Positions 8,401 through 24,939 of a stretch of 31,012 bases of DNA are shown here, in pieces; position 1 is the stretch's first letter, and every line of letters begins with the position of its first letter. The notes beneath the pieces were generated by a model that saw only the letters and a list, made by a program, of their open reading frames with translations, was not told the origin of the DNA and did no database searches. A program made the translations under genes and the position numbers. The DNA is from a virus (taxonomy: Duplodnaviria; Caudoviricetes), in IMG/VR virus record IMGVR_UViG_3300037465_000112, positions 1 through 31,012 of that record, one strand, 5' to 3'.

Positions 8401-11400
8401 GCGTCAATTATTCCAGCTGTGCCGGCAACCATCTGAGACATCAACGCAGTTTGAGTATCCTGCCTAGAAGTGATTGGGTTGGTGATGTACTGCTGGTAGT
8501 CTTTACCTAGCGCTTCTCTTGCCTTTTGCTTAGCAACTTCTCTGGCCTGCTGCATCACTCGGGTAGCTTCCTCTAGAGCAGGAATTCCTCGGAAAGTCAA
8601 CTCCCCACCTGGCCCCATTTCGGCTTGCTCAGACGTAGCTAACTCCTGGGTCAGAGTGTCAATCATATTTCGAACACCGCTTTCCAAACCAGTATTGTCC
8701 AATTGACCAGAGAACAAAGCATCTGCCATAACCTGGCGGAACTGCTCGGCTTGAGATTGTTGCGCGCGCAGGGCGTTGATCTCAATGTCCTGCTGTTCCT
8801 TGATACGGGCTTCTTTTTCGTCAAACTCGATAGCGGCCATTTCCTCGGCCTCGGCACGGATTTCTGCCATAGATCGAGGACCACCAGTCCTACGCGCCTC
8901 GACAGCCTCCCGTCTCTGCTCGAAGGTAGTCTTGAAGCCCGGCTGTCCAACACGAGCAAACGCACCCTCTAGATCGGAACCGATCTTGTCGTACTGAAGT
9001 GCTTCTGCCTTCTTGAAATCGGCGATCATATTCTCAAGAGAATTGGCAAAATCGGTGGCGGCAATAGCCAGCCTGGCTGGGCCCTTCTTAGCCATCAGAT
9101 CTTTATTCGTTCTCTCCAAATTAGCAATTGCTTCCAATTCTGCTTTGTGGAAATTGAAATATGCCTCTTCTCGTTTCGCCGCAATAGCTTTATCCAAATC
9201 ACCTATCACCTTGAGGTGATCTTGTTCTCGTAGCTTGGCCAGTTCCTCCGGCCCCCTGGCCATAGTTTCTGCGGCAGTACGAGTAACTAGTTTGGCCACT
9301 TCAGGTTTGGACAGCATAGCGTTGTATAGATCTGCTGTCCTTTCCATCTCTTCGGCGGCCGTAGTGCTGGCCGATAGGGCCTCTACTGTTTGGGCAGCGA
9401 TATCGACCGTAGCTCCAATAGCTGCGCCACCTGCTGCGGCGGGAAGCGCCCCAATTCCAGCCAAGGGGGCCCCTACAGCAGCGCCTGCACCAGCCCCCAC
9501 CGTAGTAGCGGTACCGAGTCTCTTGGCCCTTTCTGCCATAGTAATGGTTTGCGGGGCCTCAACTTCTCTAATTCTGTTGATGGCATCTGCAAAAGCTGCC
9601 CGCTGCTCTTCGATGGCTTTTCTTTGCTCTTCCGGCAGCTGCATCAGCTCAGGAGGAAGCGGAGCTAATTCTACAACACGACGTGCCTTTCCAAGCTCGT
9701 CTTCTCGCATCACTTCTCGCATACCCAAAGACTTGAACAGGGTCTGCTGTAGTGCGCCCTGTCCACCCAGTTGTCCCACGGCACCAAGGGCAGACTTGGC
9801 TGTTTCCCGAGCCTGTCGTCCTTCCAAGAATGCCCTAGCGCCTTCCTTATCACCCAAAGCCAGTACCTTTAGAATCTGCTCCAAAAGGCTGGCCTGCTGT
9901 TGCTCAACGTCAAGCTGGGCGTCCATTCTCTTGGCCAATTCAGCATTACCCTTTTCCTGGGCGGCAATAGCTTCAATGGTATCCTTACTCAATCCCGCAC
10001 CAGCCCGTTCCTCTGCCTTCATGCGCTGCTCGGCCGAGAGTTTAGACCATGCTCCTTCGAGCGACTTGATCGTATCCTCAAAATTGGCCCGCTGCTTCAT
10101 AATGTCGGCTAGTAGCTGAGCCTGAGCTTCCCGTTCTCGTTCCTGTTGGGCAATGGCTCGCATACCTCCACCAAATTCAGGTACTTCCAAAGACAACCTT
10201 TCCATGCCCGTCAATTCTCGCATACTCTTACCGAAATCGAGGCTGGGCAGTTCAGCCATTCCCGCCATGGCCCCTGCTGTCTGAATGAGGAATTTGGAAC
10301 GAATCTCTTCCTCAATTCTGGCATCCCGTGTAGCCTGTGCGGCATTTTCCATAGCAACATTCAACTCTTCAATGGCCTTCTGGTAATGCGTTAGTTGAGA
10401 AATCTTGAACCCTTCGGCTTGAAGCTGCATTACTAACGCAGACATGTCCTCAGTCAAAACTTTCAAGGCGCTAGCATTCTGGGCTTGACGAGCATAAGAT
10501 CCCTCTACGTCATCCAGAACAGTTTCGCTGTACTCTTTAGCAAGAATGTTGTACTCTGCTTGAATATCAGCCAATCTTTGAAGCGGTATCTCCAAGCTCT
10601 CCGTGGCCATGACCCTCTGCTCTGCGGTCATTTCTGCCCGCCTGCCCAGACCAATGTCCGGCATGCCGCCTGTAGGCACGCGCACCCCTGCCATAGCCCC
10701 CACAAAAGTCATGTTCATGAGTCGCTTGGTTTCTTCCGCGGCATCCTCCATAGCCTTTCTCTGCCAACGAATGATGCCGTGCTCAAGAATTGTGAATGCT
10801 TCCCCAGCCTGGGCGGTAGTGTTGGTAACCATCTCACTTAGAGAAGATGCAGACACTTCCCGCCAAGTATTATTGGCAGTATCCCACCAACGGTAAATGG
10901 CCTCTCCAACACCTACGCCAGCGATTAGAGTTCTGGCATCTTCCAGGCCGCCACCAAAAGCCTCGGCCAAAGACTTGGCCACTTCCGTGCCAACTATAGC
11001 AACCTCTCCAGTTTGGATTGCTCCCACCGCTTCTTTAGCCAAACCTGTAGTGGGTTTGATTCCACGCTCCGTCAAACTACCAGCCAGCAAGGCAGCGCTG
11101 CCGCCGGTACGGTAATCCACTAGCCCGCCAGCACCGGCCTGTCTAGCCATGGCCCCAAACATAATGGACTTTTCAGTAGCGCCTCTGCCGAAAGCGCCGC
11201 CACCAACCTTTTCTGCCATTTCGGCCGCCTTGGCAAAAGCAGGATTGTTCAGGGCTTCGGCAGCCATCCCAAGATCTTCGAAGCGGGGCAGTCCCTCCAT
11301 AACACTCTTGACCTTGGTGGTGATTTCTAGTACCTGGGAAAGCAACTCGGCGCGCTGGGCGGTCAGCGCCACCAACTCCGCCTCTCCAGAAACCATGATG

Positions 11401-14400
11401 TCGCCCTGGCTGGCCATTTGTTCCCGGGCAGAAACAATCTCCATCATCTTGTCTTGAACTTCCTCTAGCTTGCCCAGAACGCTATATTCTTCTTCTCCGC
11501 CAGCGGTCATGCCACCAACCAGGAACTGCCGGAGCTTATTCCAGGCACCCGAGGCCTTCTTAAGATCATCCACATACGCCGAAATGGTCTTGGCTTGGAA
11601 CATGGCGGTCAGGGCATTTTGCGCATCTAGGGCGGAGGCAGTAACCTTCTTCAGATTCTCATCCAAACCAATCATGAGTTGCCCAGTTTCAGAAATACCC
11701 CTAATCTTGGTCGGATCAACCTGGCCCAAGGCTTCTGAAACTGAGGCAACGGCGTCTCCGTAATTTTGGGCAGCCACGGCGGCACTCTTGTAAGTTCCCT
11801 GATCTACGGCCGTCTTCATGCCCTCCAAATCTTCTAACTTGGCTGCAGCCTGGGACATCTTCTTGAACGCCAGCGACACTCGATCAATGCCTGTGTATTG
11901 ATCACGAAGATGCATGGCGTAATCCTGGCTTCTTCCGATCAAATCCTCATATTCGGCAGCCATATCTGCGCCAGTCTTGTTCGCTTTCTTCCACATGTAG
12001 ATGACGGCAGCTAGCCCAGCAAGTACTAGGCCAATAACTGTGCCGCCCGCAAATACGGTCATGGCGTAGGATGCCTCCCGAATAGCGGTCGTCAGGGAGC
12101 CAAACATAGGAATAACCCTACCTAGTGGACCAGTCAAGGCAGTTATACCCTTGAGGGCCCCGGCCCCTACGGTAGCAATACCTCTGCCTACCGCACCACC
12201 GGCAGCCATCATTTTGGTAGGAGCCGTAACACCTTTTGCGCCAAGGGCTCCGCCTTGCGCAATACCCTTACCAAATTGACCAACTCCCTTTACAGCGGCC
12301 TTGCCCATGCCCAAAAGGCCCGCACTCTTCATCCTATCGGCCATTTCAGTTCCCGCAAAGAGAATCATTAGATCATCCAATGCAGCTGCGGCACGTCCAC
12401 CCACCATACCCAACGCACCCAAAGCGGTAACAGTTGCCAACACCCCATCTGGCAACTTACTAAACACATCCAACATACTTGTAGCCACCTTCACAAGTGT
12501 GGTAGCTGGTCCTAGAACGGATTTTCCTAAAGCCAACCCTAGGCCCTTGAGGGTTTCTTTGAATACTGCGGTTTGCTTGGCTACGCTCTCCATAACCAAA
12601 GCATTCTTCTTGGCAGCAAAACCCTGGGCATTGTGGGCATTAGAGCTGGCCATCAGGGCCTCATCAAAATTCTCCATGAGAACGATGAATTGGTTGTAAT
12701 GCCGAATACCCGAGATAGACTGCGCTACGTTGATTTGTTGCGCTCGCGTCAAATCTCCCCAAACCCCAGCCAACTGCTTCAACACATCCATCGCGGGTCG
12801 GTAATCACCAGTAGCCTCCAAGCTCTGAATTCCCAACCTACCTAGTTGCTTCTGAGCGGCACCGCTTCGCATAGTACGGAACATGAACTTGGTGGCCGTA
12901 GCAACCTCTTTACCGCTTTGTCGAGTAACCGAACCGATGGCTGTTACGATACCCAGGAAGTCCTGGAAGCTAACGCCGGCGACTCCAGCAGCAGCACCGG
13001 ATCTCTTCACGGCGTCGGCAAGATCTTCGGCAGAAATGGCGTGCTTAGCAGCAACGGCCGCCCAAGCATCTACGAACTCGATACTAGTACCAACCTCATC
13101 GCTAAATACCTTGTGGGCTGCGGTCAAGGCTTCCGTAGCTTCTGTAGCATCTAGGGTTGTGGTATTCATTGCCATCATGGTCGCCTTGGTTCTCTCGGTA
13201 ATCTCACTCATCTTCAAACCTTGCTGACCATAAACTACCATACCATCCAACACATCTTCGATGGCCACACCGAAGTTCTTGGCCATACTTACCGCAGTAT
13301 CCTGCATTTTCTCGAAGTCTGTAATGGACGTATCCATAACCTTCTGGAGTTCTACGACCTTGGTCTGAACGGTAACCACCACGCTAACCAAGTTGTGGAA
13401 GGCTCTAACCAAACCATAGATAACACCGGATGCAAAACCCCATTGCACTACGCGGCGAAGAGCATTCTTCATCTGGTTGACCCACAAACTGGTAGCGTTG
13501 GTAGCGTTCTTCATAGAGATCGTTACCGTCTTGCCAACACGCTCGGCCTCAATTCGTACCCGCTGTAAGACCTGCCCAGTTTGGGGATCCACAATATCTT
13601 TGGTGATAGGGGCAAAATGCTTCGGCCTACCGATCTTTGCAAAAGCTTCTTGGTCGTTCACTAGGCTTTGCAATCTTTCTTGGTACGCCTTAGCGGCCGC
13701 TTGCATTTCCTCGTACTGGGCCGTAACTGATTCTGCAAGAGTTCCACCGCCCGTTCCCGCAATTCCAGACAGGCGGGCCTGCTTAGAGGCAGCGGCAAAT
13801 GCCATAGCCCTAGTGCCTTCGTCTGTAAGATCCTTTCCTTGGACAGCCTTAGCGGCGTCCCTGGACAATTTGACAATCTGAGTCAACCAGGCCACTGTTT
13901 CCGAGAACTTACCGTTCTCCATGCCCACGTGCTTGGCTGTGCGGGCAATGATTTCCGCAACCTTAACAAGATTGGCATACATTGCCTCTGGCTTTTGAAC
14001 CAATGCATCCCAAAGTAAAGACCATGCCTTGGTAACATCCCCACCCTCGGCGGCCTTCGCAATAACTTCATCCAAAGCGCCACCCATTTGGGCCTTGAAT
14101 TCCTTACCTTCGTCACCTTGCCCCATGATGTAGGCAAACTGCGCCTTTAGCATTTCCTTGGACGGACGAATACCGGCGTCCACGGCCGCGGGGGCCAATT
14201 CGCCACCAGGGGTTGCAATCGGGCTGGCAATAGTGTAAGCCTTACCCCTAGGTACCAGAGTGGACATGAGGAATTCCTGGAACTGCTCCGATTCTTGTCC
14301 CAGTTGGTTGATGAGATCCGTGTACTTCGTGGGATCTTTGATGTCTTCCCCAGAGGCCTTCATTTGACCAATAGCTTTTTGTAGTTCCCGGGATCGATTT

Positions 14401-17400
14401 AGGAAGTTGACAGAAATGGCCTGGAAGAAGTCTTGCAACAGTCGCATGTAAACCCGCTGACCTTCTCCCTTACCAATTACTTTACCTGTAGCATCGGCCT
14501 GGCCTTCCATTTCATTCACCGCGGCGCGAATATCAGAAGCGACTTGGTACATTTCACGGGTAGACTTTACTCTAGCTTCCGGCCCTTGTATTTCTCCGGC
14601 ACGGGCGGCAGTAATCAAAGACATGGCTTGTTCGGCGCGGCCAGCTATAGGACCAGTCTTGAACGCACCGATAGGAGCATTTTCTGGGGCACCCGGAATT
14701 TCTAGCATGCCGGCTGCGTTTCGGGAAATAGTAGGCAACCCAAGCATCTCAGTTCCCTGGAAAACAGCGGCTTCTTGCATGCCCAACTTTTGAGAAATAC
14801 CCTGTAGGAAACTTGTAACATCCCCACCCCGACCTAGATGCGTGAGGATATCATTGGCCGCCGTGAGTGGCTTCACCGCGCCTTCAGCGGAAGCCGCCAA
14901 TTGATCTATGACACTAGTGAAGTTTCTAACTTCCGAAGCTGCTTCTAGGGAAGTACGCGCAAACTGAAGAACATCCTGCTCGATGTCTACACCACCGGCC
15001 TCGTGAGCGGCGCGTAGAAGGGTATGGAGGTGTTCGGAGAGTTCCTCAATAGCATCATCTGCCACACCGGCCGCTTGCATCAATTTCTTGAATGCCGCCG
15101 GATCTGCTTGATAAGCCAGAAGTTCTTCGGACAAAGTAGACATGGCCTTCTTGTATGCAGCCCGGAGAGCGCCTTCGTCACCCGGAGACGTTGCCTTCAA
15201 TTTATCATACTCGGCGAACGCACTCTTAACATTGAAGGCTCTTTCAGACATAGCTGCCTTGATCTTTTCCAGATTGCGACCGACTGCAGTTCTTTGTTCC
15301 TCTGGCTTACCCGCCTCACCGGTAGAGAGGCTGCGCATCAAGCCAGACTTAGCCTCCTTAAATAACTTGTTGGCCTGATGAATTGCTTCGTGAGATACAG
15401 TTACACCAAAACCCTCTAAACCTCTAGCGATAGTTTCCAAATCTGCAGCAGTGGCGGGGGCCCCTTCTGCTATCTTACGCAATAACTCCATGGCATCTAG
15501 GAATGGCTTGATTCTGAGCTGCTTACTAATGAACATTTCTCCCGACTGGCCCCTACCGCCGCCGTACTTAACGTGCCCAGAGATGCTTTGCAGTTCTTCT
15601 TGGGTCATTCTCTTAGCCACTTCTCTTGGAAGCACGCCTTTCCATGCCTGTTGGGTAGGCACCACTGTCATTCTACTAGAGGCCTTCTCGTACATGACGC
15701 CCATACGATCTGCCAACTCTCGAAGTCGGTTACGAACTGGATTTAGAGTTCCTTCCAACTCAAACTCATTGGCTGCGTCTTCGGCTTCTGTAGCAATATC
15801 CCTTGACAGTAGGCGTACCGCTTCTTGCGCCTGCTCCATTGGGCTTTGCTCTCGGAAAGCCTTGATTTGCTTTTCACGGGTACCAATATACTCGGGAGCC
15901 AATTGTCCCAACAATCTATCCAGATCCAACCCCTTAATCCTACCAGTCTTACCCGGGGTTAGCATCTTCTGCATCTCTTCTTCTACTTCTGCCATATTCA
16001 AACCCTGCGCCTGCAGAGCCGTAATCATGTTCTTCTTCATGTTCTCAAACATGCGTGTGATGATGGCCTTCAAATCCAGGTTATCTACCATCGTTTTGAT
16101 TGCAGACTGGAAGTTCTCGTAGGTAATGTCCTTGGGTAGTAAGTCTTCTATCCCTCCCAGACGAGCTTCTTCACGAAGTCCTTCAGCCCCCTTCATTCTG
16201 AACACATCTGAGAATTGCTGAGTCATCTTATCGCGCATCTTCTGGTTGTAGCGGCCCATTTCCCCATAAATGTCGGCCCCGCCCACATCCATACCTTTGA
16301 AGATCTCACCTAGCCGACCCGTCTTCAGGTTTTCAATTAGGTCTAGCGGACCAGCAACACCACCCCCGCCTCCCTTTTGGGCTAGAGACTTGTTGATATT
16401 GAGCATGATCCAGTCCATACCTGTAGCAAAAGCATCCCCCACCTGTCCTGTGCCGTGGGTAACCGATACCATGATCTTGTTAAATGCGTCTGTCAACAGA
16501 CCAACAGACTTCTTGGGTCCGATAAGCGATTGTGCTTCGAATCGGGCTGTTTCTGCGGTTTGTGGCATCAAAACAGCGCGTTGAAGCTCCCCGGATCTAC
16601 CCTTAGCGACTCCGCCAAACATATCGCTAAACTGTTGGAGGGTTGCGGTTTGTCCGCCGGATACTTCGCCCAAAATCTCAGCCATCATTTGTTGGTAGCT
16701 AACTGCCCCGCGTTCTACCTTTTGCGTAAAGGTCTCTAGCCCGGAACCAGCTTTAGTAGCCGTATCAGACAGCCAGCTAATCTTGTCACCGTCGAAGTCT
16801 AGATTCAGCCCATGCGCCAAGTACAACTGGTTCAACTTCTGAAGCAGTGGAACTAAGTTGGCCAATTCCATCTTGGCAGCTTCGGCGGCCGGGCCCAGCC
16901 CACGAGCCGCATCTATGATTTTTCGCAGTTCCGAGGCCCGTGCCTCTAGTGGGGCCTTCATCTTGGCCAAATCTTCCTTAGAACTAATCGCCATAGGCCC
17001 AGCTACACCAATTCTACCTTCCGGCAATTGACCCGTGGGATCCACCATTGGGCGGGTGGCAAGGAAGCTGGCCGCGCCGGTGGTCGGGTATCTGTGTAGA
17101 AGTCCTGTGCGAGCAACTCGCTCCTCAGCCTCTTCTCTACCAATTCTTCGTTCCCGCATGGTAGCTTCGACCAGATTATCCCAATCTCTCTTGTTTAGAA
17201 GGATAGCGTCGCGAGGAATCTTCTGGATTTCTCCCCCGCCTTGCGCCTCAAGCATTCGATTCCAGGCGGAAAGGGCCTCAGTTGCCCCAGGAACCGAAGT
17301 TCCTAGACGCTGTAATACATCCCCCACTTGCCTCAATTCCTCGTCAATATCTGTCCTGAACTGAACAGCCGTTAGTTCTTTGTGGGATAGGGCAATACCC

Positions 17401-20400
17401 GCCCCCATTTGTGAAGCATATGGGATCTTCATGATAGATGACGGCTTACCACCACTTTCCGTAGCAAATGCTAGGGTGCTGTACATGCCAAGCAGTTCGC
17501 CTTTGAGCTTTTCCAACCGGTCGTGAAGCCTATCTACGGCAGCGGCGTCTTCTTCCATCGTGATGCCCAATTGTTCCATCACTTTCTGTAGAACTTCAGG
17601 GCTTTGTCTCAATGCGCCGGCAGTTGGTACATTCTCGTAGCCTTTTTCGATGCTCTTCGTTGCAGCTCGGCCTCGGAGAACATCTTGCAAACTCAGCATT
17701 CGTCTCTGGGCCGTAGGTTGAGACATTACAAATTCTTCAGCAGAGGTGCCAGCGGCCGCTGTGGTTTCCAAGCGGCCCCTGCCGCCCGCCTTGCTTAGCC
17801 GGTAGAAAGAAATATCCTCAGCTAGCCGCAAACCCTTGATTAGGGGCAAGAATGAGGCTACAAAAGCATCCGCGGCTTCTGCAGAATTGTAAGCAGCATT
17901 AACCTGCAACCTAATTGCTTCGCGTGCTTTATTAGCAGCGTCTTTGAATGTTTCGCTCTCGGTATCTAGCGATGAAACATCGGGGGCAATTTTACCTTCG
18001 GCAGCCCTGATCTGTCTACCCACCTGCATAATCTGGTCTAACTGTCTGGTAATAGGATCAGAACCCTTGGCCCCCAACGGAGTCTCAAAGGCCCCTCTTT
18101 CACCCAGACCCTTACCAATGGCAGGTAGTCGCAGCAAACTCTCGCCGCCACCGCGAGCGGGCAAACGAATAGCCAACGCCTCCTTGAATCTTGGATCCAA
18201 GATGGTGTCGGCGAAATCTTCTATAGCGCCCACTCCAGGAGGTAGTTTCTTGAATTCCTCCGGTAGCATTTCGCGCAGTTTTTCGGATACCACATCTGTT
18301 GCCCCGGCTAGGGACAACAGCGTGTTAACAAATTCCTTCTCCCGCTCTGTAACTTGAGACATTCGAGCCATCATGTCTTGGGCCATCTTGGCCGTGTCGG
18401 CTCTCATTCCCAATGCGCGCATAGCAGGAAGATCGAAGTAACGATCGCCTATCTCGGAAGGTCCTGGTTCCCGTGGCTCCTTATGGCGAAGGAATGACAG
18501 ATTTCCCACCACAGGCATATCTTCAAGCATCGCGGGGCTTACAGAGAAATACTCAGCAGCCTGCTTAGCAGCCTCCACTAGGGTCTTTCCACCATTTACC
18601 ATCGCATCTTCAATAATGTTGGCTACTTCTTGTGCTGTAGGGGCTACGTCCGTCGGAGAAGCTGCTGATTCTGCTATACTGGAGGCTATCATCTTCATTG
18701 GGTCAGACAAAATACCACGCTTAGCCGCCCCGTATCCAGAAAGTGCAGCTTCGGTACCTGCGGGCAACTTAAATGTTCCAGCAAGGTCTTCTACTACCTT
18801 AACTACGCCTTTGAAACCAGCAATTGTACCAATCTTACTACCAGTAAGAAGCGGGTAAAGCTCCTTCAACCTAACGCGGAAGCCCTTCAAACCATTCTCT
18901 ACTACTTCTTCTATACCCTCAACTTCGGCTTCGACACCTTTCATGTCGAATTTGATCTCTTTACCTTCGACGTCATAACCCATGAGCTGCCCATGGATAA
19001 GCTTCTGTCCAACCTTAAAATCTTCAGCCAATGCCTTCATGGGGTCTGTAATCTTAGGTTCCCACATAGACATCTTTTCAGCAGCCTTCTTGTCAATCAG
19101 AATCATGTCCTCATGAACTTCAGGTGTCTTGCGAGGATCTAGATACGCTGTCTTGAGGGTACGTGTCATCTTCTCTTTGAACATACCCGTTTCGTAAGCC
19201 AAGGCCTCACCCTTCCCCATAATCTCAGGGCGGTGACCATAAACCATCTCTCTAGCTTGCTGGGGCTGGAAAGATCGCATTGGGCGCATAGCTCCGCGCC
19301 CACCAAGAATCATGCCTGCTAAATCTCGAAGTTGTACCGGAAGCTCTGCTCCAATAGGTCTTCCGCCTTCACCCTTGATAATTCTAGCTTCAGCAGCACC
19401 GGCTTCTCCCAAGCCTACGGAACCTACAACCTCAGCACCCATCTTACGCAGCTCTTTGAGGGCATCACTCATATCCCAAAGTTCTGCGTTAAGAAGAGCA
19501 ATCTGGGACGACTCGTCCTTCAAAGCCGCTAGGCGATCCTGTAAGGCCTTGTTGTCCGAAAAGTCGATGGAGAGGACGGCCTCTCCTCCCTTTTCAAATG
19601 CCTGGGCCCCTCCCAACTTGGCAACGGGTAGATCCAGAACCCCCTTCATCTCTCGACGAAGCATCGCCAAGGCGCGTTCCTGGCCTCCCGTACCCGCTCT
19701 AGCGGCCCGTTCTGCCTTTACCAAGACCTCACGGAAGTCTGGGGAGCCAGAGAGGGCCTTAAGTCTTTGTGTTAGAACATCACCAAACTCGGTAACTTTT
19801 CCGCCCACAATGGTAAGCGCAGTAGTAACTACCTTAGCTTGACCAGATAGGCCTTTGATCTCAACACTGGCACCCGGGCCAACCCCAACGGCACTTGCTT
19901 CAGGTAGACCTAACCTCTTCAAGAGATCAGGGATCTTGCCCAATGCGCCCAGGCCCAACAACATCTTGTTGAACTTGCCTAGGCTTTCAGATGCACTTTT
20001 AGCCTGCGCCGCAGCGTGCTTTACTAACGGATGCTCCGCAACCGGTTTTTCCGGCTTCGGAGGCGGGGCGGGCGGCGTACGGGACGCAGCTCGCCTCTCA
20101 TCCACCACCTGGGCGGCAGGCCTATCTCTATCTGTACCAGTTCTTCTATCAACGCGACGTTCAGTGGTACCAGAATCCCTACGACCCGCCTCTTGCCGGC
20201 TAATCTGAATATCGCGCGCTCGATTTTTGTTGGATGGTCCAACTTGAGGCTCTACTTGCCCCGGCGGTGGGGGCCCCGCCGCCACTTTCTTCTCCATGGA
20301 CTTAGTGAGCCTCTCCATGGCGGAAACTACGGAAGAAGCAGCATCGTCAAATCTAGATACTAACTGTCGGTTCTCCCTCGCTAGTGCTTCTACAGCTTCG

Positions 20401-20630
20401 GTAAAGTCCGCGGAGGTTACCCTGGTTGCCTCCCGGACACTTCTAGCTGTAGCAGCACCTCCTGCAACTGCAGGAGGAGCAGCGCCGCCGGGCCCACCGC
20501 CTAAAGTGAACCCGGCCGTTGCTCTTTCAAAAGCAAGCTTTACAGCCTGCTCTACTTGTTTGGTAATGCTAGATAGACTCCCAGAGTCAACCTCTAGCTC
20601 TATACCAATTTTGAAGCTCTCTTCTACCAC
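5442..20630 (-). CDS. Giant tape measure polyprotein with embedded two-barrel RNA polymerase, zincin-like and GNAT-like domains
   Basis: 5062 aa, GTG start with a GGAGG SD, at the canonical position after the tail tube and chaperone genes. TP901-type tape measure core at about aa 2390-2700. RNAP motifs ED507-508, K599/K607, R1180, D1278-F-D-G-D1282. HEAIH at aa 1747-1751; QGKGIG at aa 4235-4240. Confidence 0.9.
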   Translation of the reverse strand: MVEESFKIGIELEVDSGSLSSITKQVEQAVKLAFERATAGFTLGGGPGGAAPPAVAGGAATARSVREATRVTSADFTEAVEALARENRQLVSRFDDAASSVVSAMERLTKSMEKKVAAGPPPPGQVEPQVGPSNKNRARDIQISRQEAGRRDSGTTERRVDRRTGTDRDRPAAQVVDERRAASRTPPAPPPKPEKPVAEHPLVKHAAAQAKSASESLGKFNKMLLGLGALGKIPDLLKRLGLPEASAVGVGPGASVEIKGLSGQAKVVTTALTIVGGKVTEFGDVLTQRLKALSGSPDFREVLVKAERAARAGTGGQERALAMLRREMKGVLDLPVAKLGGAQAFEKGGEAVLSIDFSDNKALQDRLAALKDESSQIALLNAELWDMSDALKELRKMGAEVVGSVGLGEAGAAEARIIKGEGGRPIGAELPVQLRDLAGMILGGRGAMRPMRSFQPQQAREMVYGHRPEIMGKGEALAYETGMFKEKMTRTLKTAYLDPRKTPEVHEDMILIDKKAAEKMSMWEPKITDPMKALAEDFKVGQKLIHGQLMGYDVEGKEIKFDMKGVEAEVEGIEEVVENGLKGFRVRLKELYPLLTGSKIGTIAGFKGVVKVVEDLAGTFKLPAGTEAALSGYGAAKRGILSDPMKMIASSIAESAASPTDVAPTAQEVANIIEDAMVNGGKTLVEAAKQAAEYFSVSPAMLEDMPVVGNLSFLRHKEPREPGPSEIGDRYFDLPAMRALGMRADTAKMAQDMMARMSQVTEREKEFVNTLLSLAGATDVVSEKLREMLPEEFKKLPPGVGAIEDFADTILDPRFKEALAIRLPARGGGESLLRLPAIGKGLGERGAFETPLGAKGSDPITRQLDQIMQVGRQIRAAEGKIAPDVSSLDTESETFKDAANKAREAIRLQVNAAYNSAEAADAFVASFLPLIKGLRLAEDISFYRLSKAGGRGRLETTAAAGTSAEEFVMSQPTAQRRMLSLQDVLRGRAATKSIEKGYENVPTAGALRQSPEVLQKVMEQLGITMEEDAAAVDRLHDRLEKLKGELLGMYSTLAFATESGGKPSSIMKIPYASQMGAGIALSHKELTAVQFRTDIDEELRQVGDVLQRLGTSVPGATEALSAWNRMLEAQGGGEIQKIPRDAILLNKRDWDNLVEATMRERRIGREEAEERVARTGLLHRYPTTGAASFLATRPMVDPTGQLPEGRIGVAGPMAISSKEDLAKMKAPLEARASELRKIIDAARGLGPAAEAAKMELANLVPLLQKLNQLYLAHGLNLDFDGDKISWLSDTATKAGSGLETFTQKVERGAVSYQQMMAEILGEVSGGQTATLQQFSDMFGGVAKGRSGELQRAVLMPQTAETARFEAQSLIGPKKSVGLLTDAFNKIMVSVTHGTGQVGDAFATGMDWIMLNINKSLAQKGGGGGVAGPLDLIENLKTGRLGEIFKGMDVGGADIYGEMGRYNQKMRDKMTQQFSDVFRMKGAEGLREEARLGGIEDLLPKDITYENFQSAIKTMVDNLDLKAIITRMFENMKKNMITALQAQGLNMAEVEEEMQKMLTPGKTGRIKGLDLDRLLGQLAPEYIGTREKQIKAFREQSPMEQAQEAVRLLSRDIATEAEDAANEFELEGTLNPVRNRLRELADRMGVMYEKASSRMTVVPTQQAWKGVLPREVAKRMTQEELQSISGHVKYGGGRGQSGEMFISKQLRIKPFLDAMELLRKIAEGAPATAADLETIARGLEGFGVTVSHEAIHQANKLFKEAKSGLMRSLSTGEAGKPEEQRTAVGRNLEKIKAAMSERAFNVKSAFAEYDKLKATSPGDEGALRAAYKKAMSTLSEELLAYQADPAAFKKLMQAAGVADDAIEELSEHLHTLLRAAHEAGGVDIEQDVLQFARTSLEAASEVRNFTSVIDQLAASAEGAVKPLTAANDILTHLGRGGDVTSFLQGISQKLGMQEAAVFQGTEMLGLPTISRNAAGMLEIPGAPENAPIGAFKTGPIAGRAEQAMSLITAARAGEIQGPEARVKSTREMYQVASDIRAAVNEMEGQADATGKVIGKGEGQRVYMRLLQDFFQAISVNFLNRSRELQKAIGQMKASGEDIKDPTKYTDLINQLGQESEQFQEFLMSTLVPRGKAYTIASPIATPGGELAPAAVDAGIRPSKEMLKAQFAYIMGQGDEGKEFKAQMGGALDEVIAKAAEGGDVTKAWSLLWDALVQKPEAMYANLVKVAEIIARTAKHVGMENGKFSETVAWLTQIVKLSRDAAKAVQGKDLTDEGTRAMAFAAASKQARLSGIAGTGGGTLAESVTAQYEEMQAAAKAYQERLQSLVNDQEAFAKIGRPKHFAPITKDIVDPQTGQVLQRVRIEAERVGKTVTISMKNATNATSLWVNQMKNALRRVVQWGFASGVIYGLVRAFHNLVSVVVTVQTKVVELQKVMDTSITDFEKMQDTAVSMAKNFGVAIEDVLDGMVVYGQQGLKMSEITERTKATMMAMNTTTLDATEATEALTAAHKVFSDEVGTSIEFVDAWAAVAAKHAISAEDLADAVKRSGAAAGVAGVSFQDFLGIVTAIGSVTRQSGKEVATATKFMFRTMRSGAAQKQLGRLGIQSLEATGDYRPAMDVLKQLAGVWGDLTRAQQINVAQSISGIRHYNQFIVLMENFDEALMASSNAHNAQGFAAKKNALVMESVAKQTAVFKETLKGLGLALGKSVLGPATTLVKVATSMLDVFSKLPDGVLATVTALGALGMVGGRAAAALDDLMILFAGTEMADRMKSAGLLGMGKAAVKGVGQFGKGIAQGGALGAKGVTAPTKMMAAGGAVGRGIATVGAGALKGITALTGPLGRVIPMFGSLTTAIREASYAMTVFAGGTVIGLVLAGLAAVIYMWKKANKTGADMAAEYEDLIGRSQDYAMHLRDQYTGIDRVSLAFKKMSQAAAKLEDLEGMKTAVDQGTYKSAAVAAQNYGDAVASVSEALGQVDPTKIRGISETGQLMIGLDENLKKVTASALDAQNALTAMFQAKTISAYVDDLKKASGAWNKLRQFLVGGMTAGGEEEYSVLGKLEEVQDKMMEIVSAREQMASQGDIMVSGEAELVALTAQRAELLSQVLEITTKVKSVMEGLPRFEDLGMAAEALNNPAFAKAAEMAEKVGGGAFGRGATEKSIMFGAMARQAGAGGLVDYRTGGSAALLAGSLTERGIKPTTGLAKEAVGAIQTGEVAIVGTEVAKSLAEAFGGGLEDARTLIAGVGVGEAIYRWWDTANNTWREVSASSLSEMVTNTTAQAGEAFTILEHGIIRWQRKAMEDAAEETKRLMNMTFVGAMAGVRVPTGGMPDIGLGRRAEMTAEQRVMATESLEIPLQRLADIQAEYNILAKEYSETVLDDVEGSYARQAQNASALKVLTEDMSALVMQLQAEGFKISQLTHYQKAIEELNVAMENAAQATRDARIEEEIRSKFLIQTAGAMAGMAELPSLDFGKSMRELTGMERLSLEVPEFGGGMRAIAQQEREREAQAQLLADIMKQRANFEDTIKSLEGAWSKLSAEQRMKAEERAGAGLSKDTIEAIAAQEKGNAELAKRMDAQLDVEQQQASLLEQILKVLALGDKEGARAFLEGRQARETAKSALGAVGQLGGQGALQQTLFKSLGMREVMREDELGKARRVVELAPLPPELMQLPEEQRKAIEEQRAAFADAINRIREVEAPQTITMAERAKRLGTATTVGAGAGAAVGAPLAGIGALPAAAGGAAIGATVDIAAQTVEALSASTTAAEEMERTADLYNAMLSKPEVAKLVTRTAAETMARGPEELAKLREQDHLKVIGDLDKAIAAKREEAYFNFHKAELEAIANLERTNKDLMAKKGPARLAIAATDFANSLENMIADFKKAEALQYDKIGSDLEGAFARVGQPGFKTTFEQRREAVEARRTGGPRSMAEIRAEAEEMAAIEFDEKEARIKEQQDIEINALRAQQSQAEQFRQVMADALFSGQLDNTGLESGVRNMIDTLTQELATSEQAEMGPGGELTFRGIPALEEATRVMQQAREVAKQKAREALGKDYQQYITNPITSRQDTQTALMSQMVAGTAGIIDAIKCIEQVQNQQVSAMQQASAAVMSTGGTPAAGTAVAPITTPTGVAPAALRTAVGSPLEAQQAGISGPVALGALTAAGSRIRGSAAGVVTGSIMSDEIETALGTVTNVIEKEADHIVRVASYLNDKVVGFQQFEIENEGGRKLLKAQHITEGPLPAELQGKGIGSSRMRKMVEWAREQGMDAIESTFTTSASQLKTYQKAARATGTNFELVPGAKPVYEGSDTLVNEISRPSGIGYEPVARINISKAGAQELMAEDAQKAAAAARRARLGRVLGTGARGLAMAGSAVGGAQMGGVLHRAGLAQTPEQRAAVAGDLGEQAGFWGLTTGGAMAGAGLGGMLGGPIGAAAGGVLGGLAGAGVGLLTSEPMRVAGQYYDEKTGGALSGAAGWLGNQISRPGAWAGEKYGQTGIGKWLSELNVPTWLGGPGAPQVTAAGQPAGMIAGARPPVAPVPGAAPVMGAVPAAAGVAPVPSQARPEPWAWLGALQQEGISFLPKGGLQEAPRPAYDLGQRVPGAVNVYKGEARTYTGGMEDMFTQAQTIKARSTGGPLTEAENLRTLAALEQRSPATRVFTPGAFEDIHPKAQGMTPQQMLERIQNSSALFQALESKMLPPAQGLTNRNLQAESQARAITGNATATPGLTSTDRGTGAGTRDDIEQRSDRGETAADRVGTGGADTEALAAAIASLNEQFSSLVSALEGITGLGEKIDGTTAAVEALGEGLDVNVTGGTIEVSNLGEVSEGINTGISAIGADVTDARTRLALLETVVDPNGTPIDERLTEFQTTLDTAVQQVATDLETAKEELRTEVTDLATTTATESTRELETKLTELEGLQADLQAAKEEQDRLLAEINAAIEKAQAELAAAAEAAASATEAAAGAQDQIAGLDDRVAAAEEQAASAESRVDALETTAQLATEAAAEATNTANAAKTAVEQEKTLRENADRDLSARADRIEETNKQQDDAIKKINKDLGPAISNARLALNKSQGR
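7790..8070 (-). other. GNAT-like acetyltransferase domain (boundaries approximate)
   Basis: VASYLNDKVVGF...LPAELQGKGIGSSRMRKMVEWAREQGMDAI matches GNAT motif A (Q/RxxGxG) with the following helix and strand. Confidence 0.72.
12500..13470 (-). other. Phage tail tape measure core (TP901/PhageMin_Tail-like)
   Basis: ELQKVMD...MAKNFG...VVYGQQG...TLDATEATEALTA...VDAWAAVAAKHAISAEDLADAVKRSGAAAGVAGVSFQDFLGIVTAIGSVTRQSGKEVATATKFMF is the classic repeat pattern of this family. Confidence 0.9.
15050..15710 (-). other. Zincin-like metallopeptidase domain (boundaries approximate)
   Basis: TVSHEAIHQ (HExxH at 15378-15392) with a downstream LSEELLAY (EE at 15123-15128) as the candidate third ligand helix. 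Confidence 0.6.
16000..19350 (-). other. Two-barrel (DPBB) RNA polymerase domain inside the tape measure protein (boundaries approximate)
   Basis: Beta-like motifs: LKTAYLD..PEVHEDMILID and LLTGSKIGTIAGFKGVV. Beta-prime-like motifs: GLLHRYPTT and GLNLDFDGDKI (DFDGD at 16785-16799). Confidence 0.88.
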
Positions 20631-20649: not shown

Positions 20650-21714
20650 TTATCGTCCTCTCCTAGCGGCCCTCATGTTGCGTGCCCTTCTGCTGTTGGG
20701 AGCGACGACTTGAACGTCTGAAGCTGTACCAGCCTTCACACGTTCTTCGCTGTAAGACATCTTTAGGTAATCCGGATGGTTGGGTGTAATGATCACTTCA
20801 TCGGCTTCAGAAGCCCCTAACTTACCTTTGGCACCCGAACCTCGCTTTAGCCTTCCCTGGTTCCTATCCTTTTCCCTTTGCTTGAAGTAGGACTCCATGT
20901 AGGCGTCCAGTGCGTCATCGTCCTTAATGATGTCATCATCCGGTTGGTCATCCGGAAGCATTTCGTAAATCGACTGATAGTAGTTGCTCCAGTACAAAAG
21001 GGACTGCTGATCTGGAGTAAGATCATGGAGCCCTTGAGGAAACACAGGGCCTCCCAATTTCAACCCGGCGGTATAGCGAATTCTCCACAACACATGCCGA
21101 GCCAAATAGCGAATCTTGCTTACCGGAAACCCTCGGTTGAAGTAGGCAAATTTCTCCACCAACCCGTGTCGTAAAACCAAGTCAGTTTCGTTCTCGAAAT
21201 CCTGAAACGTAGGCCAGTACCTATCGCCATCTATCTTGTAAGAAGCCGCCCAAGATAAGAACAACAGGGACTCTTCATCTGCCTTGAACTCCCGGGTCAT
21301 GGCGTACAAATGTTCATTTTTAGCCTTCAACTTGGCTACTTCCAAAGACAAGCCGGCGATCGTCTCTTCTATGGGTTTTCGACGGCCTTCTATCTTAGTA
21401 AGACTGAGGAGACGCCGCTGGGCGTTAATCTTACCTTCTAGATCGGCAATTCGCTGTGTGTCCTCTTGTCCAAAGCCACGGGCCTTAATGATAGCATCGA
21501 TATCTTCGCGAGAAGGAAGTTCCTCTTTGGCCGCTTCTATCAATGCTTTTTCCCGAAAATACCTGCTGGCCAGAATATCGTTGGAGGAAGGATGAGAAAA
21601 TACCAAGAACGTAACTTCGCCGTGTCTATTTGGAATTTTAACCAGTTGCTTGTTGTTGATGACGCTTTCTAGAAGTTCTTCAACTTCCTGAAAAGAAAGC
21701 TCTTCAACTGGCAT
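20650..21714 (-). CDS. Tail assembly chaperone, long form (GT-like)
   Basis: 354 aa immediately upstream of the tape measure gene. The N-terminal half is paralogous to 21714-22523. The extra C-terminal region contains LHDLTPDQQSLLYW and ends in a basic tail. Confidence 0.6.
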   Translation of the reverse strand: MPVEELSFQEVEELLESVINNKQLVKIPNRHGEVTFLVFSHPSSNDILASRYFREKALIEAAKEELPSREDIDAIIKARGFGQEDTQRIADLEGKINAQRRLLSLTKIEGRRKPIEETIAGLSLEVAKLKAKNEHLYAMTREFKADEESLLFLSWAASYKIDGDRYWPTFQDFENETDLVLRHGLVEKFAYFNRGFPVSKIRYLARHVLWRIRYTAGLKLGGPVFPQGLHDLTPDQQSLLYWSNYYQSIYEMLPDDQPDDDIIKDDDALDAYMESYFKQREKDRNQGRLKRGSGAKGKLGASEADEVIITPNHPDYLKMSYSEERVKAGTASDVQVVAPNSRRARNMRAARRGR

Positions 21715-22523
21715 TACTTATCCTTTCGAGGTCGTCCTCGCTTCTTCGGGGGCGCGGGCGGAGGCGTAAGCTCGTCGGGCAATACCACATTCTCCACCAC
21801 CGGAGCTTCTTCTGCTGCGGGCGGGGTCGCGTCGGCAATAACCTCTCGGGCCGCTGCGGTCGCCTTCTCAATACGCGACTGCTGAATCTGGCGAAGCACG
21901 GCCTGTTCCGGGGTATTCTCCAGGAAATTGCTTTCCAACCCTTGCATCCATAGCATGACCTCAAACCGAGCCTTGATAGCTAGCGCAGTATTCTCCTCAT
22001 TACGATAGGCATCGTAATCCTTCCAAAACTTGGTACGATCCTTCTTTTCCACAAGCCGGCTGGTCAGAAAATCAGTCCTAGCATCTTCCGCCAAATTCTC
22101 ACAGGTGTTGGCCATGGGGCCATTGATGCGCTGATTGAGCTGAAAAAGCTCGTCTCGTAGACGCGCTACTTCCAAAGCACAAACTTCCTTCTCTTCCTCG
22201 GTAGCTTTTTCCAGAAGGTTTTCCAGTCTGAAAAGTTCGGCCCCCAGGGTAATGCGTACGCCTTCTAGCTTCTGGCTATACTCTGTAGACAAAATACCTT
22301 TGGTCCGAAGCAGCTCTAGCATTTGCGATTGAGTAAGCAATCCATCCACAATAGCTTGATTGTAGACCTTGGAATACTGCCAGTCTGCCTTACGAATATC
22401 CTCTCCGGTGGGGTTGGCAATAAAGAAGTGTAGAATTTCGTGATCGGGGGTTTCGATAGTGAATTCTCGTCGACTATCCAAAATGTCCTTAACAGCGCCC
22501 TTTGCGCTTTCGGCGTCAGCCAT
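21714..22523 (-). CDS. Tail assembly chaperone, short form (G-like)
   Basis: 269 aa, helical, between the tail tube and tape measure genes. AGGAG SD; C-terminal KKRGRPRK. Confidence 0.6.
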   Translation of the reverse strand: MADAESAKGAVKDILDSRREFTIETPDHEILHFFIANPTGEDIRKADWQYSKVYNQAIVDGLLTQSQMLELLRTKGILSTEYSQKLEGVRITLGAELFRLENLLEKATEEEKEVCALEVARLRDELFQLNQRINGPMANTCENLAEDARTDFLTSRLVEKKDRTKFWKDYDAYRNEENTALAIKARFEVMLWMQGLESNFLENTPEQAVLRQIQQSRIEKATAAAREVIADATPPAAEEAPVVENVVLPDELTPPPAPPKKRGRPRKDK

Positions 22524-23049: not shown

Positions 23050-24939
23050 TTAGAACAATCGGCGTGCGTCAGGATTGACCTGGAGACCAGGGCTTGCCAC
23101 CATGTCGGCGACATCCACTTCACCGAGTACGGCAAAGAGGTTGTTAGAGCCTCGGAATCCGAAGGTCTGGGTTGCGTTCTCACCCATAGCGAGGTTGTAC
23201 GCCTCGTCGGTGATTCGCAGATCCTTAGCAATGATCGTCTTCAACGGTCGCTCTCGATGCGTGTTAGACTTCGTTGGAACAGCCGGAATGGTAGAACCAA
23301 AGTTGGTTGCCGGGAAGTCCGGATCCGAGCCAAGAACGCCATCGTAGTAGATGGAGCGCTGGCCTCTCTGGTAGTACTCATCACCAACCATTTCGCGAGT
23401 AACAACGCGTCGGTTAGAACCGGTTCCACCTGCTTCCTCATCGGTCTGCTGATAAATCTGAACAACGAGGTCGAGGCGCGTATTGGCAGTCATGAAATCG
23501 TAAATCGAGATTTCATCAGTGGTGCCGTCAATGACAACACCCTGCTTCTTGGACGCCAAGGTAGCGTACTCAACAAGGTCGTTCGCTGTAGACTCGACGG
23601 TAACAGTGAACGGAATCGGGAAGGTAAGCGATCGGTCGTACGGTCGTAGATGCGATAGTTCGAACAGCGGCTCGCGGGTGAGGTCTGCGGCAATTGTCAC
23701 AGAAGTCAAGCGTAGAGCTAGCTGATCATCCAAATCGAAGGTTGGGTCAAGAACATCCTTGTCAATAAGGTAGATCTCAATCTGACCCTGTCGGACAGCA
23801 CCAAGATCCTCTGGCTTATGGACAGTATCGACCTCAATCGGGGCAAAGTACTCTGCGTCTCGGCGGGTTGCCATACGAGAAGTATTGGCAGCACCAGATC
23901 GAGCGGCCTGAGTTGCACCGGCAAGGCCTGCGAAGGAGTTGGCGAATGCGTTGGCGGCGTAAACCACCATCAGAATATCACCAGCAGCCTTTGCCTCACC
24001 TAGAAGATCGGCATTGGTGGTCAAATCGGTAGGATCGAAGAGTTCGTTGGTAGCGCTGTTGTAAACATACGCACCCGCGGTGGCTGCGGAACCGGCCTGA
24101 ACCGGAATTTCCGTAGTTGCACCTGCAGACGCATTGTAGTAACGTACAGCGGGGTTACCGAAGTTGTCGAAGCGTAGGAAGGCAAGCTGTCCCGTAGAGC
24201 GGGTAGAAACCAACTCAGGGGTTGCAGCGTTTTGATCGAGACCAAGGAATACCGAGGTCGCGGACGTATTGATCTTCCAACCCGTTCCGCCGGTGGTACC
24301 GTCGTTAGGATCAGGATCAACGCCTGTTGCTGCGGCAGTGTAAACAAACTCCTCACTTGATACAAACCTACCGTCGTTTACGAACCAGAACTTAGCATCC
24401 GTTTCACCACCGTAATTCTCGGTAGCGTTCGCACCTGCGGAATAGGTCCACTCAATAGAGTTGACGAATACGCGAGGCAGGAACATGGTCTGTTCAATGA
24501 GATCATTGTCAGTACCAATGGAGCATTCATCCTGGATGGGGGCCCAGATCTCGACCGAAGAGTTACCGCATACTGCGGATAGACCAAAGTCAGTAAGGGC
24601 GACACCGTGATAGTACGCAATGTTGACTGCATCGTCTCCCAGACCACTTACTACAGTAAGGTGTCCGCTTACGCTGGTTGCGTCATGAACAAGAACGTTG
24701 TCCTGCTCAAGGTTAGCAAGTGCGTAGAGGTTGGAGAGAGAGCCAAATTCATTGGTCTCAATGGTCACGGCTACGGTCGGGGAGTCATCGACTACGTCGA
24801 TAATGTTGAGCTGACCAAGCTCGAACACGTCCTCAGTGTTGAACGTTGTGGTAGAACCAAACGTCTGCACACGATAGAGAACGTTACCATTAGCCCAAAC
24901 CGCATTGCTTGGGTAAATGATTCGGTTACGTCGTGCCAT
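23050..24939 (-). CDS. Major tail tube protein with tandem tube domains
   Basis: 629 aa with a strong AAGGAGG SD, located after the tail terminator. It has an internal repeat (FELGQL / FELSHL; NATENYG / NATQTFG). Confidence 0.8.
   Translation of the reverse strand: MARRNRIIYPSNAVWANGNVLYRVQTFGSTTTFNTEDVFELGQLNIIDVVDDSPTVAVTIETNEFGSLSNLYALANLEQDNVLVHDATSVSGHLTVVSGLGDDAVNIAYYHGVALTDFGLSAVCGNSSVEIWAPIQDECSIGTDNDLIEQTMFLPRVFVNSIEWTYSAGANATENYGGETDAKFWFVNDGRFVSSEEFVYTAAATGVDPDPNDGTTGGTGWKINTSATSVFLGLDQNAATPELVSTRSTGQLAFLRFDNFGNPAVRYYNASAGATTEIPVQAGSAATAGAYVYNSATNELFDPTDLTTNADLLGEAKAAGDILMVVYAANAFANSFAGLAGATQAARSGAANTSRMATRRDAEYFAPIEVDTVHKPEDLGAVRQGQIEIYLIDKDVLDPTFDLDDQLALRLTSVTIAADLTREPLFELSHLRPYDRSLTFPIPFTVTVESTANDLVEYATLASKKQGVVIDGTTDEISIYDFMTANTRLDLVVQIYQQTDEEAGGTGSNRRVVTREMVGDEYYQRGQRSIYYDGVLGSDPDFPATNFGSTIPAVPTKSNTHRERPLKTIIAKDLRITDEAYNLAMGENATQTFGFRGSNNLFAVLGEVDVADMVASPGLQVNPDARRLF

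What the first reader, a model, noticed from the sequence alone, without database searches (positions are those of the whole stretch)
16000..19350. A single-chain two-barrel RNA polymerase is embedded in the tail tape measure protein
Seen: four catalytic-core motifs in the cellular order within one frame. (1) LKTAYLD..PEVHEDMILID, ED at aa 507-508 (nt 19107-19112). (2) LLTGSKIGTIAGFKGVV, K599 and K607. (3) GLLHRYPTT, R1180 (nt 17091-17093). (4) GLNLDFDGDKI, D1278/1280/1282 (nt 16785-16799). Known: these match E. coli beta VAFM..GYNFEDSILVS (E813/D814) and GDKMAGRHGNKGV (K1065/K1073, the same 8-residue spacing), and beta-prime VLLNRAPTL (R425) and NADFDGD (D460/462/464). Inference: a virion RNAP is stored unfolded in the tail lumen, is injected ahead of the DNA and refolds to transcribe early genes. 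As I recall, a tape-measure-fused RNAP has been described for Thermus phage P23-45 (gp96, about 5000 aa). The concept therefore has precedent, but this would be another, possibly independent, lineage with a different domain cargo.
Basis: partly seen in the sequence, partly recalled or inferred. Interest (0 to 1): 0.95.

Follow-up and report, generated by a model that had tools for sequence, protein, structure and literature searches.

The report
Jumbo-phage tail ruler carries RNA polymerase
The 5,062-residue tail-ruler protein of an uncultured, probably giant phage carries near its start a diverged cell-type RNA polymerase domain, related to a second free-standing polymerase in its complete relatives, so the phage likely injects its own transcription enzyme through its tail, an arrangement I found in print only for Thermus phages.

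Summary
Confirmed. ORF 5442-20630 (-) is a tape measure protein (PF10145, TIGR01760) with all four motifs at the stated positions. They are invariant in every relative that covers them (29-33 of 36 rows).

Complete 296-298-kb relatives encode a second, stand-alone ~1,055-residue protein. It matches bacterial RNA polymerase beta (profile E 4.5e-9) and aligns colinearly with the tape-measure domain (HHalign 99.6%), which ties all four motifs to a real polymerase.

The fused form is not detectably like Thermus P23-45 gp96 (1%). It has no cysteine (0 in 29,440 residues; paralogs 13 per 1,000), a ~60-residue insert before the catalytic loop, and a following HExxH metalloprotease motif. Related phages carry fused rulers of 4,000-12,315 residues.

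Best reading: a virion polymerase that is injected and refolds to transcribe the first genes, including the free paralog. A separate origin from gp96 is favoured but not proven (AU p 0.146).

The concept is published (gp96), and this scan noted such fusions before on other DNA with no sequence look-alike. New variant of a known kind.

The parts
5442..20630 (-). Giant tape measure protein gene, 5,062 aa, one cysteine
16293..19448 (-). Single-chain two-barrel RNA polymerase core, aa about 395-1446 (family conservation continues to about aa 1600)
   Evidence: colinear HHalign to the stand-alone paralog family, 99.6%, 724 columns
19107..19112 (-). E507-D508, counterpart of beta E813/D814
   Evidence: invariant 32/32 and 33/33; aligned to paralog FED; E. 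coli numbers
18810..18836 (-). K599 and K607, counterparts of beta K1065/K1073
   Evidence: invariant 32/32 and 33/33; ED-to-K spacing 91 here, 92 in the paralog
18717..18719 (-).
   Evidence: at least 95% conserved; aligned to the paralog's invariant R416, which aligns to the beta SRMN stretch
17085..17093 (-). R1180-x-P1182, counterpart of beta' R425-x-P427
   Evidence: 31/31 each; aligned to paralog ERFP
16815..16988 (-). About 60-residue insert just before the catalytic loop, predicted by eye to be a helix-turn-helix hairpin; hallmark of the fused forms
   Evidence: R-to-D spacing 95-108 in 25 of 25 fused proteins, 35-39 in 6 of 6 others (two paralogs, E. coli beta', gp96, TSP4 gp96 homolog, gp64)
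16785..16799 (-). D1278-F-D1280-G-D1282 magnesium-binding loop
16473..16526 (-). Bridge-helix candidate, aa 1369-1386 (K1373 invariant)
   Evidence: 30/30; assignment inferred from position and my hand anchoring to the paralog
16365..16406 (-). Trigger-loop candidate, aa 1409-1422 (N1413, L1416, K1419 invariant)
   Evidence: paralog K930 invariant 54/54; assignment inferred
15123..15392 (-). Zincin-like metalloprotease signature: HExxH at aa 1747-1751 and downstream E1836
   Evidence: exactly one HExxH in 23 of 23 full-length proteins, 433-509 aa after the catalytic loop; downstream E in 23 of 23; no Pfam family
12420..13421 (-). TP901-type tape measure core (TIGR01760 aa 2404-2737; PF10145 aa 2443-2641)
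11982..12074 (-). Hydrophobic, predicted membrane-spanning segment, aa 2853-2883
   Evidence: hydropathy scan
7818..8042 (-). GNAT acetyltransferase-like cargo, aa 4197-4271, patchy in the family
   Evidence: PF00583 E 6.2e-5, above cut-off; found in 2 of 22 full-length homologs
20650..22523 (-). Two genes (269 and 354 aa) in the position of tail assembly chaperones
   Evidence: position only; conserved order in relatives; no informative family hit
23050..24939 (-). Likely tail tube protein, 629 aa, with a weak internal duplication
   Evidence: half-versus-half HHalign E 7.5e-4, probability 25%; Atlas neighbour with Phage_tube_2 on 21% of members, a lead only
29619..30686 (-). HK97-fold major capsid protein
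   Evidence: PHROG 2522 E 3e-13; NF042927 E 4.6e-12, below cut-off

Best explanation
Residues about 395-1450 of this tape measure protein are homologous to two-barrel RNA polymerases and keep every catalytic residue, so they likely form an active virion polymerase that would be held extended in the tail tube, be ejected with the ruler ahead of the DNA, and refold in the host to transcribe the first phage genes. SHOWN: the fusion; invariant catalytic residues; homology to a stand-alone single-chain polymerase encoded by complete relatives; cysteine loss; the shared insert; the HExxH motif; 230-300 kb genomes with bacterial-type genes and no sheath hit. INFERRED: (1) an ancestral jumbo phage duplicated its single-chain polymerase and one copy fused to the ruler's N-terminus; (2) the copy lost its cysteines and gained helical inserts under selection for storage and passage in a tube about 45 A wide; (3) after ejection the hydrophobic segment anchors the ruler in the membrane and the polymerase faces the cytoplasm, where it transcribes the entering DNA, including the gene for the free paralog, which takes over; (4) the HExxH domain may cut the polymerase free or activate it, the weakest step.
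For: Invariance of ED, K599/K607, R1180 and DxDxD. Profile of the fused region finds, among 352 proteins of complete relative G002, only itself and a stand-alone 1,118-codon frame (E 2.3e-24). That protein hits bacterial beta in the PDB (E 3.2e-6; family profile 4.5e-9) and Pfam Rpb2_6 and Rpb1_2 (above cut-off in homologs P0091, P0139). Fused versus free profiles: 99.5% and 99.6% with all four motifs in register. The free-paralog profile picks only the tape-measure frame among 356 six-frame segments of the window (E 1.4e-9). The fused profile's third-best PDB hit of 177,635 is a phage AR9 polymerase subunit, aligned at ED and the two lysines, though E is only 0.49 (the entry's identity as AR9 is recalled). 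Cysteines: 0 in 29,440 residues of 23 fused domains, 13.4 per 1,000 in 115 paralogs; gp96 also 0; G020, G021, G017 fused proteins 0. Both polymerases occur together in G001, G002, G017, G020, G021. Precedent: gp96 is active, present full-length in virions, and binds the region holding the non-virion polymerase gene (PMC10770324). Tube lumen about 45 A in P74-26 (PMC10034513).
Against: No structure model could be made, so the two barrels are not seen. No activity, virion or expression data. The fused domain has no significant direct hit to Pfam, PHROG, NCBIfam or the PDB. Its beta'-side similarity to cellular enzymes is weak (34%); the link there rests on colinearity with the paralog. G003 (97% complete) has the fused form but no match to the free paralog. 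The window's own record is a 31-kb fragment, so its own paralog is not seen. No repeated promoter-like word was found in G002. HExxH is absent from the complete G020 and G021 proteins, so step 4 is not general. Tape measure proteins may be cysteine-poor anyway; I ran no control on unrelated rulers.
Confidence: 0.8

Rival explanations
1. The protein is a polyprotein. The HExxH domain cuts the polymerase off during assembly, and the enzyme travels in the head or works only in the producing cell, not in the tail lumen.
For: HExxH with a downstream E sits between polymerase and ruler core in 23 of 23 proteins. crAss-like phages are proposed to use a zincin-like protease to process or activate their virion polymerase (10.1101/2020.03.07.982082, passages). 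A 12,315-aa ruler is hard to fit wholly in a tail.
Against: gp96 stays full length in virions. G020 and G021 keep the fusion with no HExxH. The N-terminal residues upstream of the polymerase are conserved in the family.
Confidence: 0.1
2. The domain is injected and catalytic, but its main job is not early gene transcription: for example pulling DNA in, making primers, or making short RNAs.
For: Large inserts reshape the connector and the catalytic barrel (K607-to-R1180 573 residues, 383 in the paralog). No repeated promoter word in G002. G003 pairs the domain with RNA ligase, LigD phosphoesterase and RNase H domains.
Against: All residues for NTP and metal binding are kept as in the paralog. 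A virion plus non-virion pair matches the P23-45 cascade. DNA pulling and transcription are not exclusive.
Confidence: 0.07
3. On origin only: this fusion and gp96 descend from one ancient ruler-polymerase fusion, and the free paralogs arose later in each lineage.
For: AU test does not reject fused forms plus gp96 as one clade (p 0.146). Both are N-terminal, cysteine-free, about 5,000 aa and paired with a free polymerase. The free paralog shows some similarity to gp96 in the catalytic barrel (87%).
Against: Fused profile versus gp96 1.0%, versus own paralog 99.6%; gp96 pairs with gp64 (63.6%). Tree: fused plus paralogs 95/100, Thermus pair 96/94. gp96 lacks the insert, PF10145 and HExxH. Whole proteins share no BLAST hit better than E 0.034.
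Confidence: 0.2
4. The domain is a dead relic kept as spacer in the ruler, or the motifs are chance or a misassembly.
For: No significant direct library hit.
Against: Catalytic residues are among only 53 near-invariant positions at 25-65% identity. The fusion recurs in many separately assembled records.
Confidence: 0.03

Closest known systems
Thermus phage P23-45 gp96, tape-measure-fused virion RNA polymerase (also P74-26, G20c, TSP4), with non-virion gp64 (PMC10770324)
   Same: Single-chain two-barrel polymerase in the N-terminal part of a ~5,000-aa ruler; DFDGD; cysteine-free; a free paralogous polymerase elsewhere in the genome.
   Different: No detectable sequence similarity. Here ED and K-x7-K are kept as in cells; I found no clear counterpart in gp96 (by eye). 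The stretch between the barrels is hundreds of residues, not the 67-residue disordered connector of the clamp-less gp96. A 60-residue insert precedes the catalytic loop. Cargo is HExxH, PF10145 and GNAT, not M23. Genomes are 230-300 kb, not 84 kb.
crAss-like virion polymerase, phi14:2 gp66 (10.1101/2020.03.07.982082)
   Same: Single-chain two-barrel virion enzyme; a zincin-like protease next to it or fused in a polyprotein.
   Different: No PDB sequence hit. The passages read describe no fusion to a ruler. Its loop is DFDID, here DFDGD.
Bacterial RNA polymerase beta/beta' and mReC phage polymerases (PMC7481178)
   Same: Same motif order and residues; the free paralog hits beta at E 4.5e-9.
   Different: Two subunits there, one chain here, much shorter; the fused copy itself is beyond direct detection.
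phiKZ/AR9 jumbo-phage virion and non-virion polymerases (PMC13282480)
   Same: Jumbo phages with a virion and a non-virion enzyme.
   Different: Multi-subunit there; single chains here, one inside the ruler.

Membership tests
Two-barrel RNA polymerases | DxDxD catalytic loop preceded by R-x-P within 20-100 residues | tested here: met
   R1180-Y-P1182, 95 residues, D1278; invariant; filter from Supplementary Data 4
Two-barrel RNA polymerases | Second barrel with two basic residues and the ED pair, upstream in the chain | tested here: met
Two-barrel RNA polymerases | Profile homology to established members | tested here: met
   two steps: fused to paralog 99.6%; paralog to beta E 4.5e-9 and Pfam Rpb2_6/Rpb1_2. 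Direct hits not significant
Two-barrel RNA polymerases | Two double-psi beta-barrel folds forming one active site | not testable with these tools
Two-barrel RNA polymerases | Template-dependent RNA synthesis | not testable with these tools
   needs purified protein
Tail tape measure proteins (TP901 type) | PF10145/TIGR01760 core, membrane segment, position after tube and chaperone-sized genes | tested here: met
Tail tape measure proteins (TP901 type) | Length sets tail length; present in the tail lumen | not testable with these tools
   no cultured relative found
P23-45 gp96 family | Sequence similarity to gp96 | tested here: not met
   HHalign 1.0-1.3%; gp96's polymerase region matches only 10 Thermus phage records of 50,697
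P23-45 gp96 family | Short connector between the barrels (clamp-less) | tested here: not met
   573 residues from K607 to R1180; gp96 connector 613-679. Whether the extra residues form a clamp is not shown
P23-45 gp96 family | M23 peptidase cargo | tested here: not met
   gp96 PF01551 at 3161-3251; none here or in 8 of 8 close homologs scanned
P23-45 gp96 family | Paired with a paralogous non-virion polymerase | tested here: met
   G001, G002, G017, G020, G021 yes; G003 no; own record too short to tell
P23-45 gp96 family | Repeated promoter motif before pre-early genes | tested here: inconclusive
   exact-word count in 146 intergenic gaps of G002 returned mostly tRNA words
crAss-like gp66 / YonO-type polymerases | Sequence or Pfam match | tested here: not met
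   no PDB or Pfam match for the fused form; paralog hits Rpb families only
Zincin-like metalloproteases | HExxH plus downstream glutamate | tested here: met
   23 of 23
Zincin-like metalloproteases | Family match or fold | tested here: inconclusive
   no metalloprotease family up to E 10; no model

The most novel reading that the evidence does not exclude
An undescribed clade of long-tailed jumbo phages invented the ruler-polymerase fusion separately from Thermus phages, by duplicating its own single-chain polymerase and rebuilding one copy for life in a tube (no cysteines, helical inserts, a hairpin wired into the catalytic loop, an adjacent protease that frees it). The ruler then became a conveyor for further enzymes, up to 12,315 residues, which at the P23-45 ratio would mean tails of 0.8 to 2 micrometres.
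Probability: 0.35. Interest if true: 0.87.

Novelty: new variant of a known kind. Interest (0 to 1): 0.72.

Why it matters
It would show that packing a transcription enzyme inside the tail ruler is not a Thermus oddity but a strategy of a widespread jumbo-phage group with no cultured member. Unlike gp96 and gp64, the fused and free copies here can still be aligned residue by residue. That gives a natural before-and-after pair for a standing question: what must change in a large polymerase for it to pass through a narrow tail and refold. Cysteine loss and the insert before the catalytic loop are specific, testable answers. The fused domain is invisible to Pfam, PHROG and NCBIfam, so such phages are currently annotated as lacking a virion polymerase.

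Tried and rejected
Direct library searches of the fused domain: none significant in Pfam, PHROG, NCBIfam, PDB, phage records; ESM Atlas gave only unnamed or tape-measure clusters with low recognition.
Single-sequence locus search found nothing.
Pattern scan for distant relatives: of 48 loci only the two already known scored strongly; the rest were other polymerases or unrelated.
Archaeal host: the only genome-collection hit is a contig in an Altiarchaeales bin. I set this aside because complete relative G002 carries bacterial-type sigma70, PolA, Pol III clamp and loader, RecA, SSB and primase, and fragments also sit in Nitrospira and Epsilonproteobacteria bins. The host remains unknown.
Stand-alone short forms of the fused domain: the 10 short hits checked lie mostly on small contigs, 4 are labelled partial, and they end mid-domain; I treat them as fragments.
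Contractile tail: PF04984 0 of 5 genomes; PF17482 1 of 5, below cut-off and in a chaperone-position gene.
Promoter word search inconclusive; sigma70 scan near the gene no more than shuffles.
No RNA holder listed. X2 does not cover about nt 14600-16130. No tRNA in the window.
Tree caveats: 146 hand-anchored columns, 39 rows chosen from the sets, Thermus rows lack the first three blocks, outgroup not one clade, bootstrap not settled.


Full report
THE OBSERVATION. The minus strand carries one open frame, 5442-20630, of 5,062 residues. The middle of the protein is a TP901-type tape measure core (PF10145 E 2.4e-25; TIGR01760 E 2.2e-39). It follows a capsid gene, a likely tail tube gene and two chaperone-sized genes. 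The N-terminal 2,000 residues match nothing in Pfam, PHROG or NCBIfam; aa 301-1600 match nothing significant in the PDB, and aa 301-1800 nothing in 50,697 phage records.

THE FAMILY. A search limited to proteins of 2,784-8,859 aa found 11 relatives among 1,262 candidates scored, all 4,007-4,644 aa and all with PF10145. An all-length search gave 31 hits; the 10 short ones I checked look like fragments. Locus searches gave 9 viral, 14 metagenome and 1 genome-collection locus, with the same gene order where flanks were read. In a 36-row alignment E507, D508, K599, K607, R1180, P1182, N1276 and the three aspartates are invariant in every row that has a residue there, while only 53 of about 1,150 positions reach 95%. 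R638, K1373, N1413, L1416 and K1419 are also on that list.

THE KEY LINK. Two complete relatives, G001 (298 kb) and G002 (296 kb), hold a second DFDGD gene. In G002 the profile of the fused region picks out, besides the ruler, only this stand-alone protein among 352 (E 2.3e-24). It hits bacterial beta subunits in the PDB (best E 3.2e-6) and both Pfam barrel families. It has 244 homolog clusters among 8,000 candidates scored, 120 of them listed. A profile of 54 of those 120 hits beta at E 4.5e-9, aligns to the fused family at 99.5-99.6% with all four motifs in register, and finds only the ruler frame among 356 six-frame segments of the window. So the fused domain is a paralog of a recognisable single-chain polymerase. 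This is homology by sequence in two steps; no structure model could be made.

HOW THE FUSED COPY DIFFERS FROM ITS PARALOG. It has no cysteine in 29,440 residues of 23 proteins, against 13.4 per 1,000 in 115 full-length paralogs. The stretch between the barrels is longer (573 against 383). About 60 residues are inserted just before the catalytic loop in 25 of 25 fused proteins and in none of 6 other polymerases. After the polymerase comes one HExxH motif with a downstream glutamate in 23 of 23 proteins. The window's protein also has a GNAT-like domain near its C-terminus, shared with only 2 of 22 homologs.

THE WIDER CLADE. I searched 19 of the 33 loci returned for the paralog; many of the 19 are fragments or distant polymerases. 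Three large records with a 36-39% paralog also have a giant frame with the fused domain: G020 (7,667 aa) and G021 (7,473 aa), both with PF10145 in the same frame, and G017 (at least 3,307 aa, cut by the contig end). They are cysteine-free and lack HExxH. G003 has a 12,315-aa version with RNA ligase, LigD phosphoesterase and RNase H domains but no match to the paralog. G002 carries bacterial-type replication and transcription genes and 33 tRNAs (80 of its 352 proteins were scanned). No sheath family passed its cut-off in 5 genomes, so a long non-contractile tail is likely. No cultured relative was found; the capsid protein is only about 23-24% like two jumbo phages. Two freshwater runs hold this DNA, one of which may be its source.

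MECHANISM. In P23-45 the ruler-fused polymerase is active, present full length in virions, and occupies the region with the non-virion polymerase gene (PMC10770324). A siphophage tube is about 45 A wide inside and is filled by the ruler (PMC10034513). A folded 1,000-residue polymerase should not fit, so I infer storage in extended form, ejection ahead of the DNA, membrane anchoring through aa 2853-2883 and refolding, as proposed for N4's virion polymerase (PMC13434306). That the ruler's N-terminus lies at the head end of the tail is recalled from lambda and T5 and comes from no call. The polymerase would then transcribe the first genes, among them the free paralog. The HExxH domain may release or activate it, as proposed for crAss-like phages, but it is missing from G020 and G021. 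At 800 nm per 5,002 residues (bioRxiv 2022.12.01.518664, abstract start) this ruler would give about 810 nm.

RELATION TO gp96. The fused profile scores 1.0% against gp96, 99.6% against its own paralog and 97-99% against the other fused forms; gp96 pairs with gp64 at 63.6%. A tree on 146 hand-anchored columns puts the 20 fused rows in one clade (95/100), fused plus paralog rows in another (95/100), and the Thermus four apart (96/94). Against this, the AU test did not reject fused forms plus gp96 as one clade (p 0.146), and the Thermus rows fill only about half the columns. It works like gp96; it is not a member of the gp96 family; a separate fusion is likely (about 0.8) but not proven.

NOVELTY. 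Eight literature searches returned no ruler-fused polymerase other than the Thermus work; the library lacks most subscription journals. Papers seen: PMC10770324, main text parts 1-3 of 7, passages, part 1 of 10 of Supplementary Data 4 and word searches of 10 supplementary files; its 7z file, probably the family alignments, could not be read and might hold a related family. Passages only: PMC7824862, 10.1101/2020.03.07.982082, PMC7481178, PMC13282480, PMC10034513, PMC13434306. This scan has three unchecked notes of ruler-polymerase fusions on other DNA; look-ups by sequence found no look-alike for the fused domain or the paralog. I did not compare those proteins.

VERDICT. The principle is published, so this is a new variant of a known kind: a separate jumbo-phage lineage with an alignable fused and free polymerase pair. 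Interest 0.72.

Noticed in passing
G003:C1:102050-138994 (L009, L101-L102): A 12,315-aa tape measure protein with only 2 cysteines, carrying the polymerase domain, RNA ligase, LigD phosphoesterase, RNase H and several HExxH motifs before and after the ruler core.
   Followed up: partly
G002:C1:122936-126289 (P0048): Stand-alone single-chain two-barrel polymerase family of about 1,050-1,200 aa, 244 clusters, no full-length match in 50,697 phage records; my searches found no description of it.
   Followed up: yes
G022:C1:104451-107634 (L157): A relative of that polymerase apparently split into two adjacent genes (508 and 556 aa), the beta'-like part upstream, with a DSDGD loop.
   Followed up: no
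L084:284-1624 (G002): Actin-like protein matching Pfam Volactin at E 1.1e-65 in a jumbo phage.
   Followed up: no
L089:9855-16541 (G002): Cluster of two phiEco32-like COOH-NH2 ligases and two glutamine amidotransferases just downstream of the free polymerase.
   Followed up: no
window 7818-8042: The GNAT cargo is shared with P0034 and P0035 (E about 1e-26), which are only about 31% alike in the polymerase region, and is missing from much closer relatives: a swapped or repeatedly lost module.
   Followed up: partly
window 23050-24939: The likely tube protein has a weak internal repeat, as in trimeric two-domain tubes such as that of P74-26.
   Followed up: partly
L020 (WJJK01000045.1): Both the fused ruler and the free polymerase lie on contigs of an Altiarchaeales bin; probably a mis-binned phage, not tested.
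   Followed up: no
L044, L048, L049, L051, L053, L059, L063, L070, L074, L077, L082: Another set of giant frames (2,000 to over 3,900 aa as fetched) with a shared NLDFDGDTL motif and no similarity to this family.
   Followed up: no
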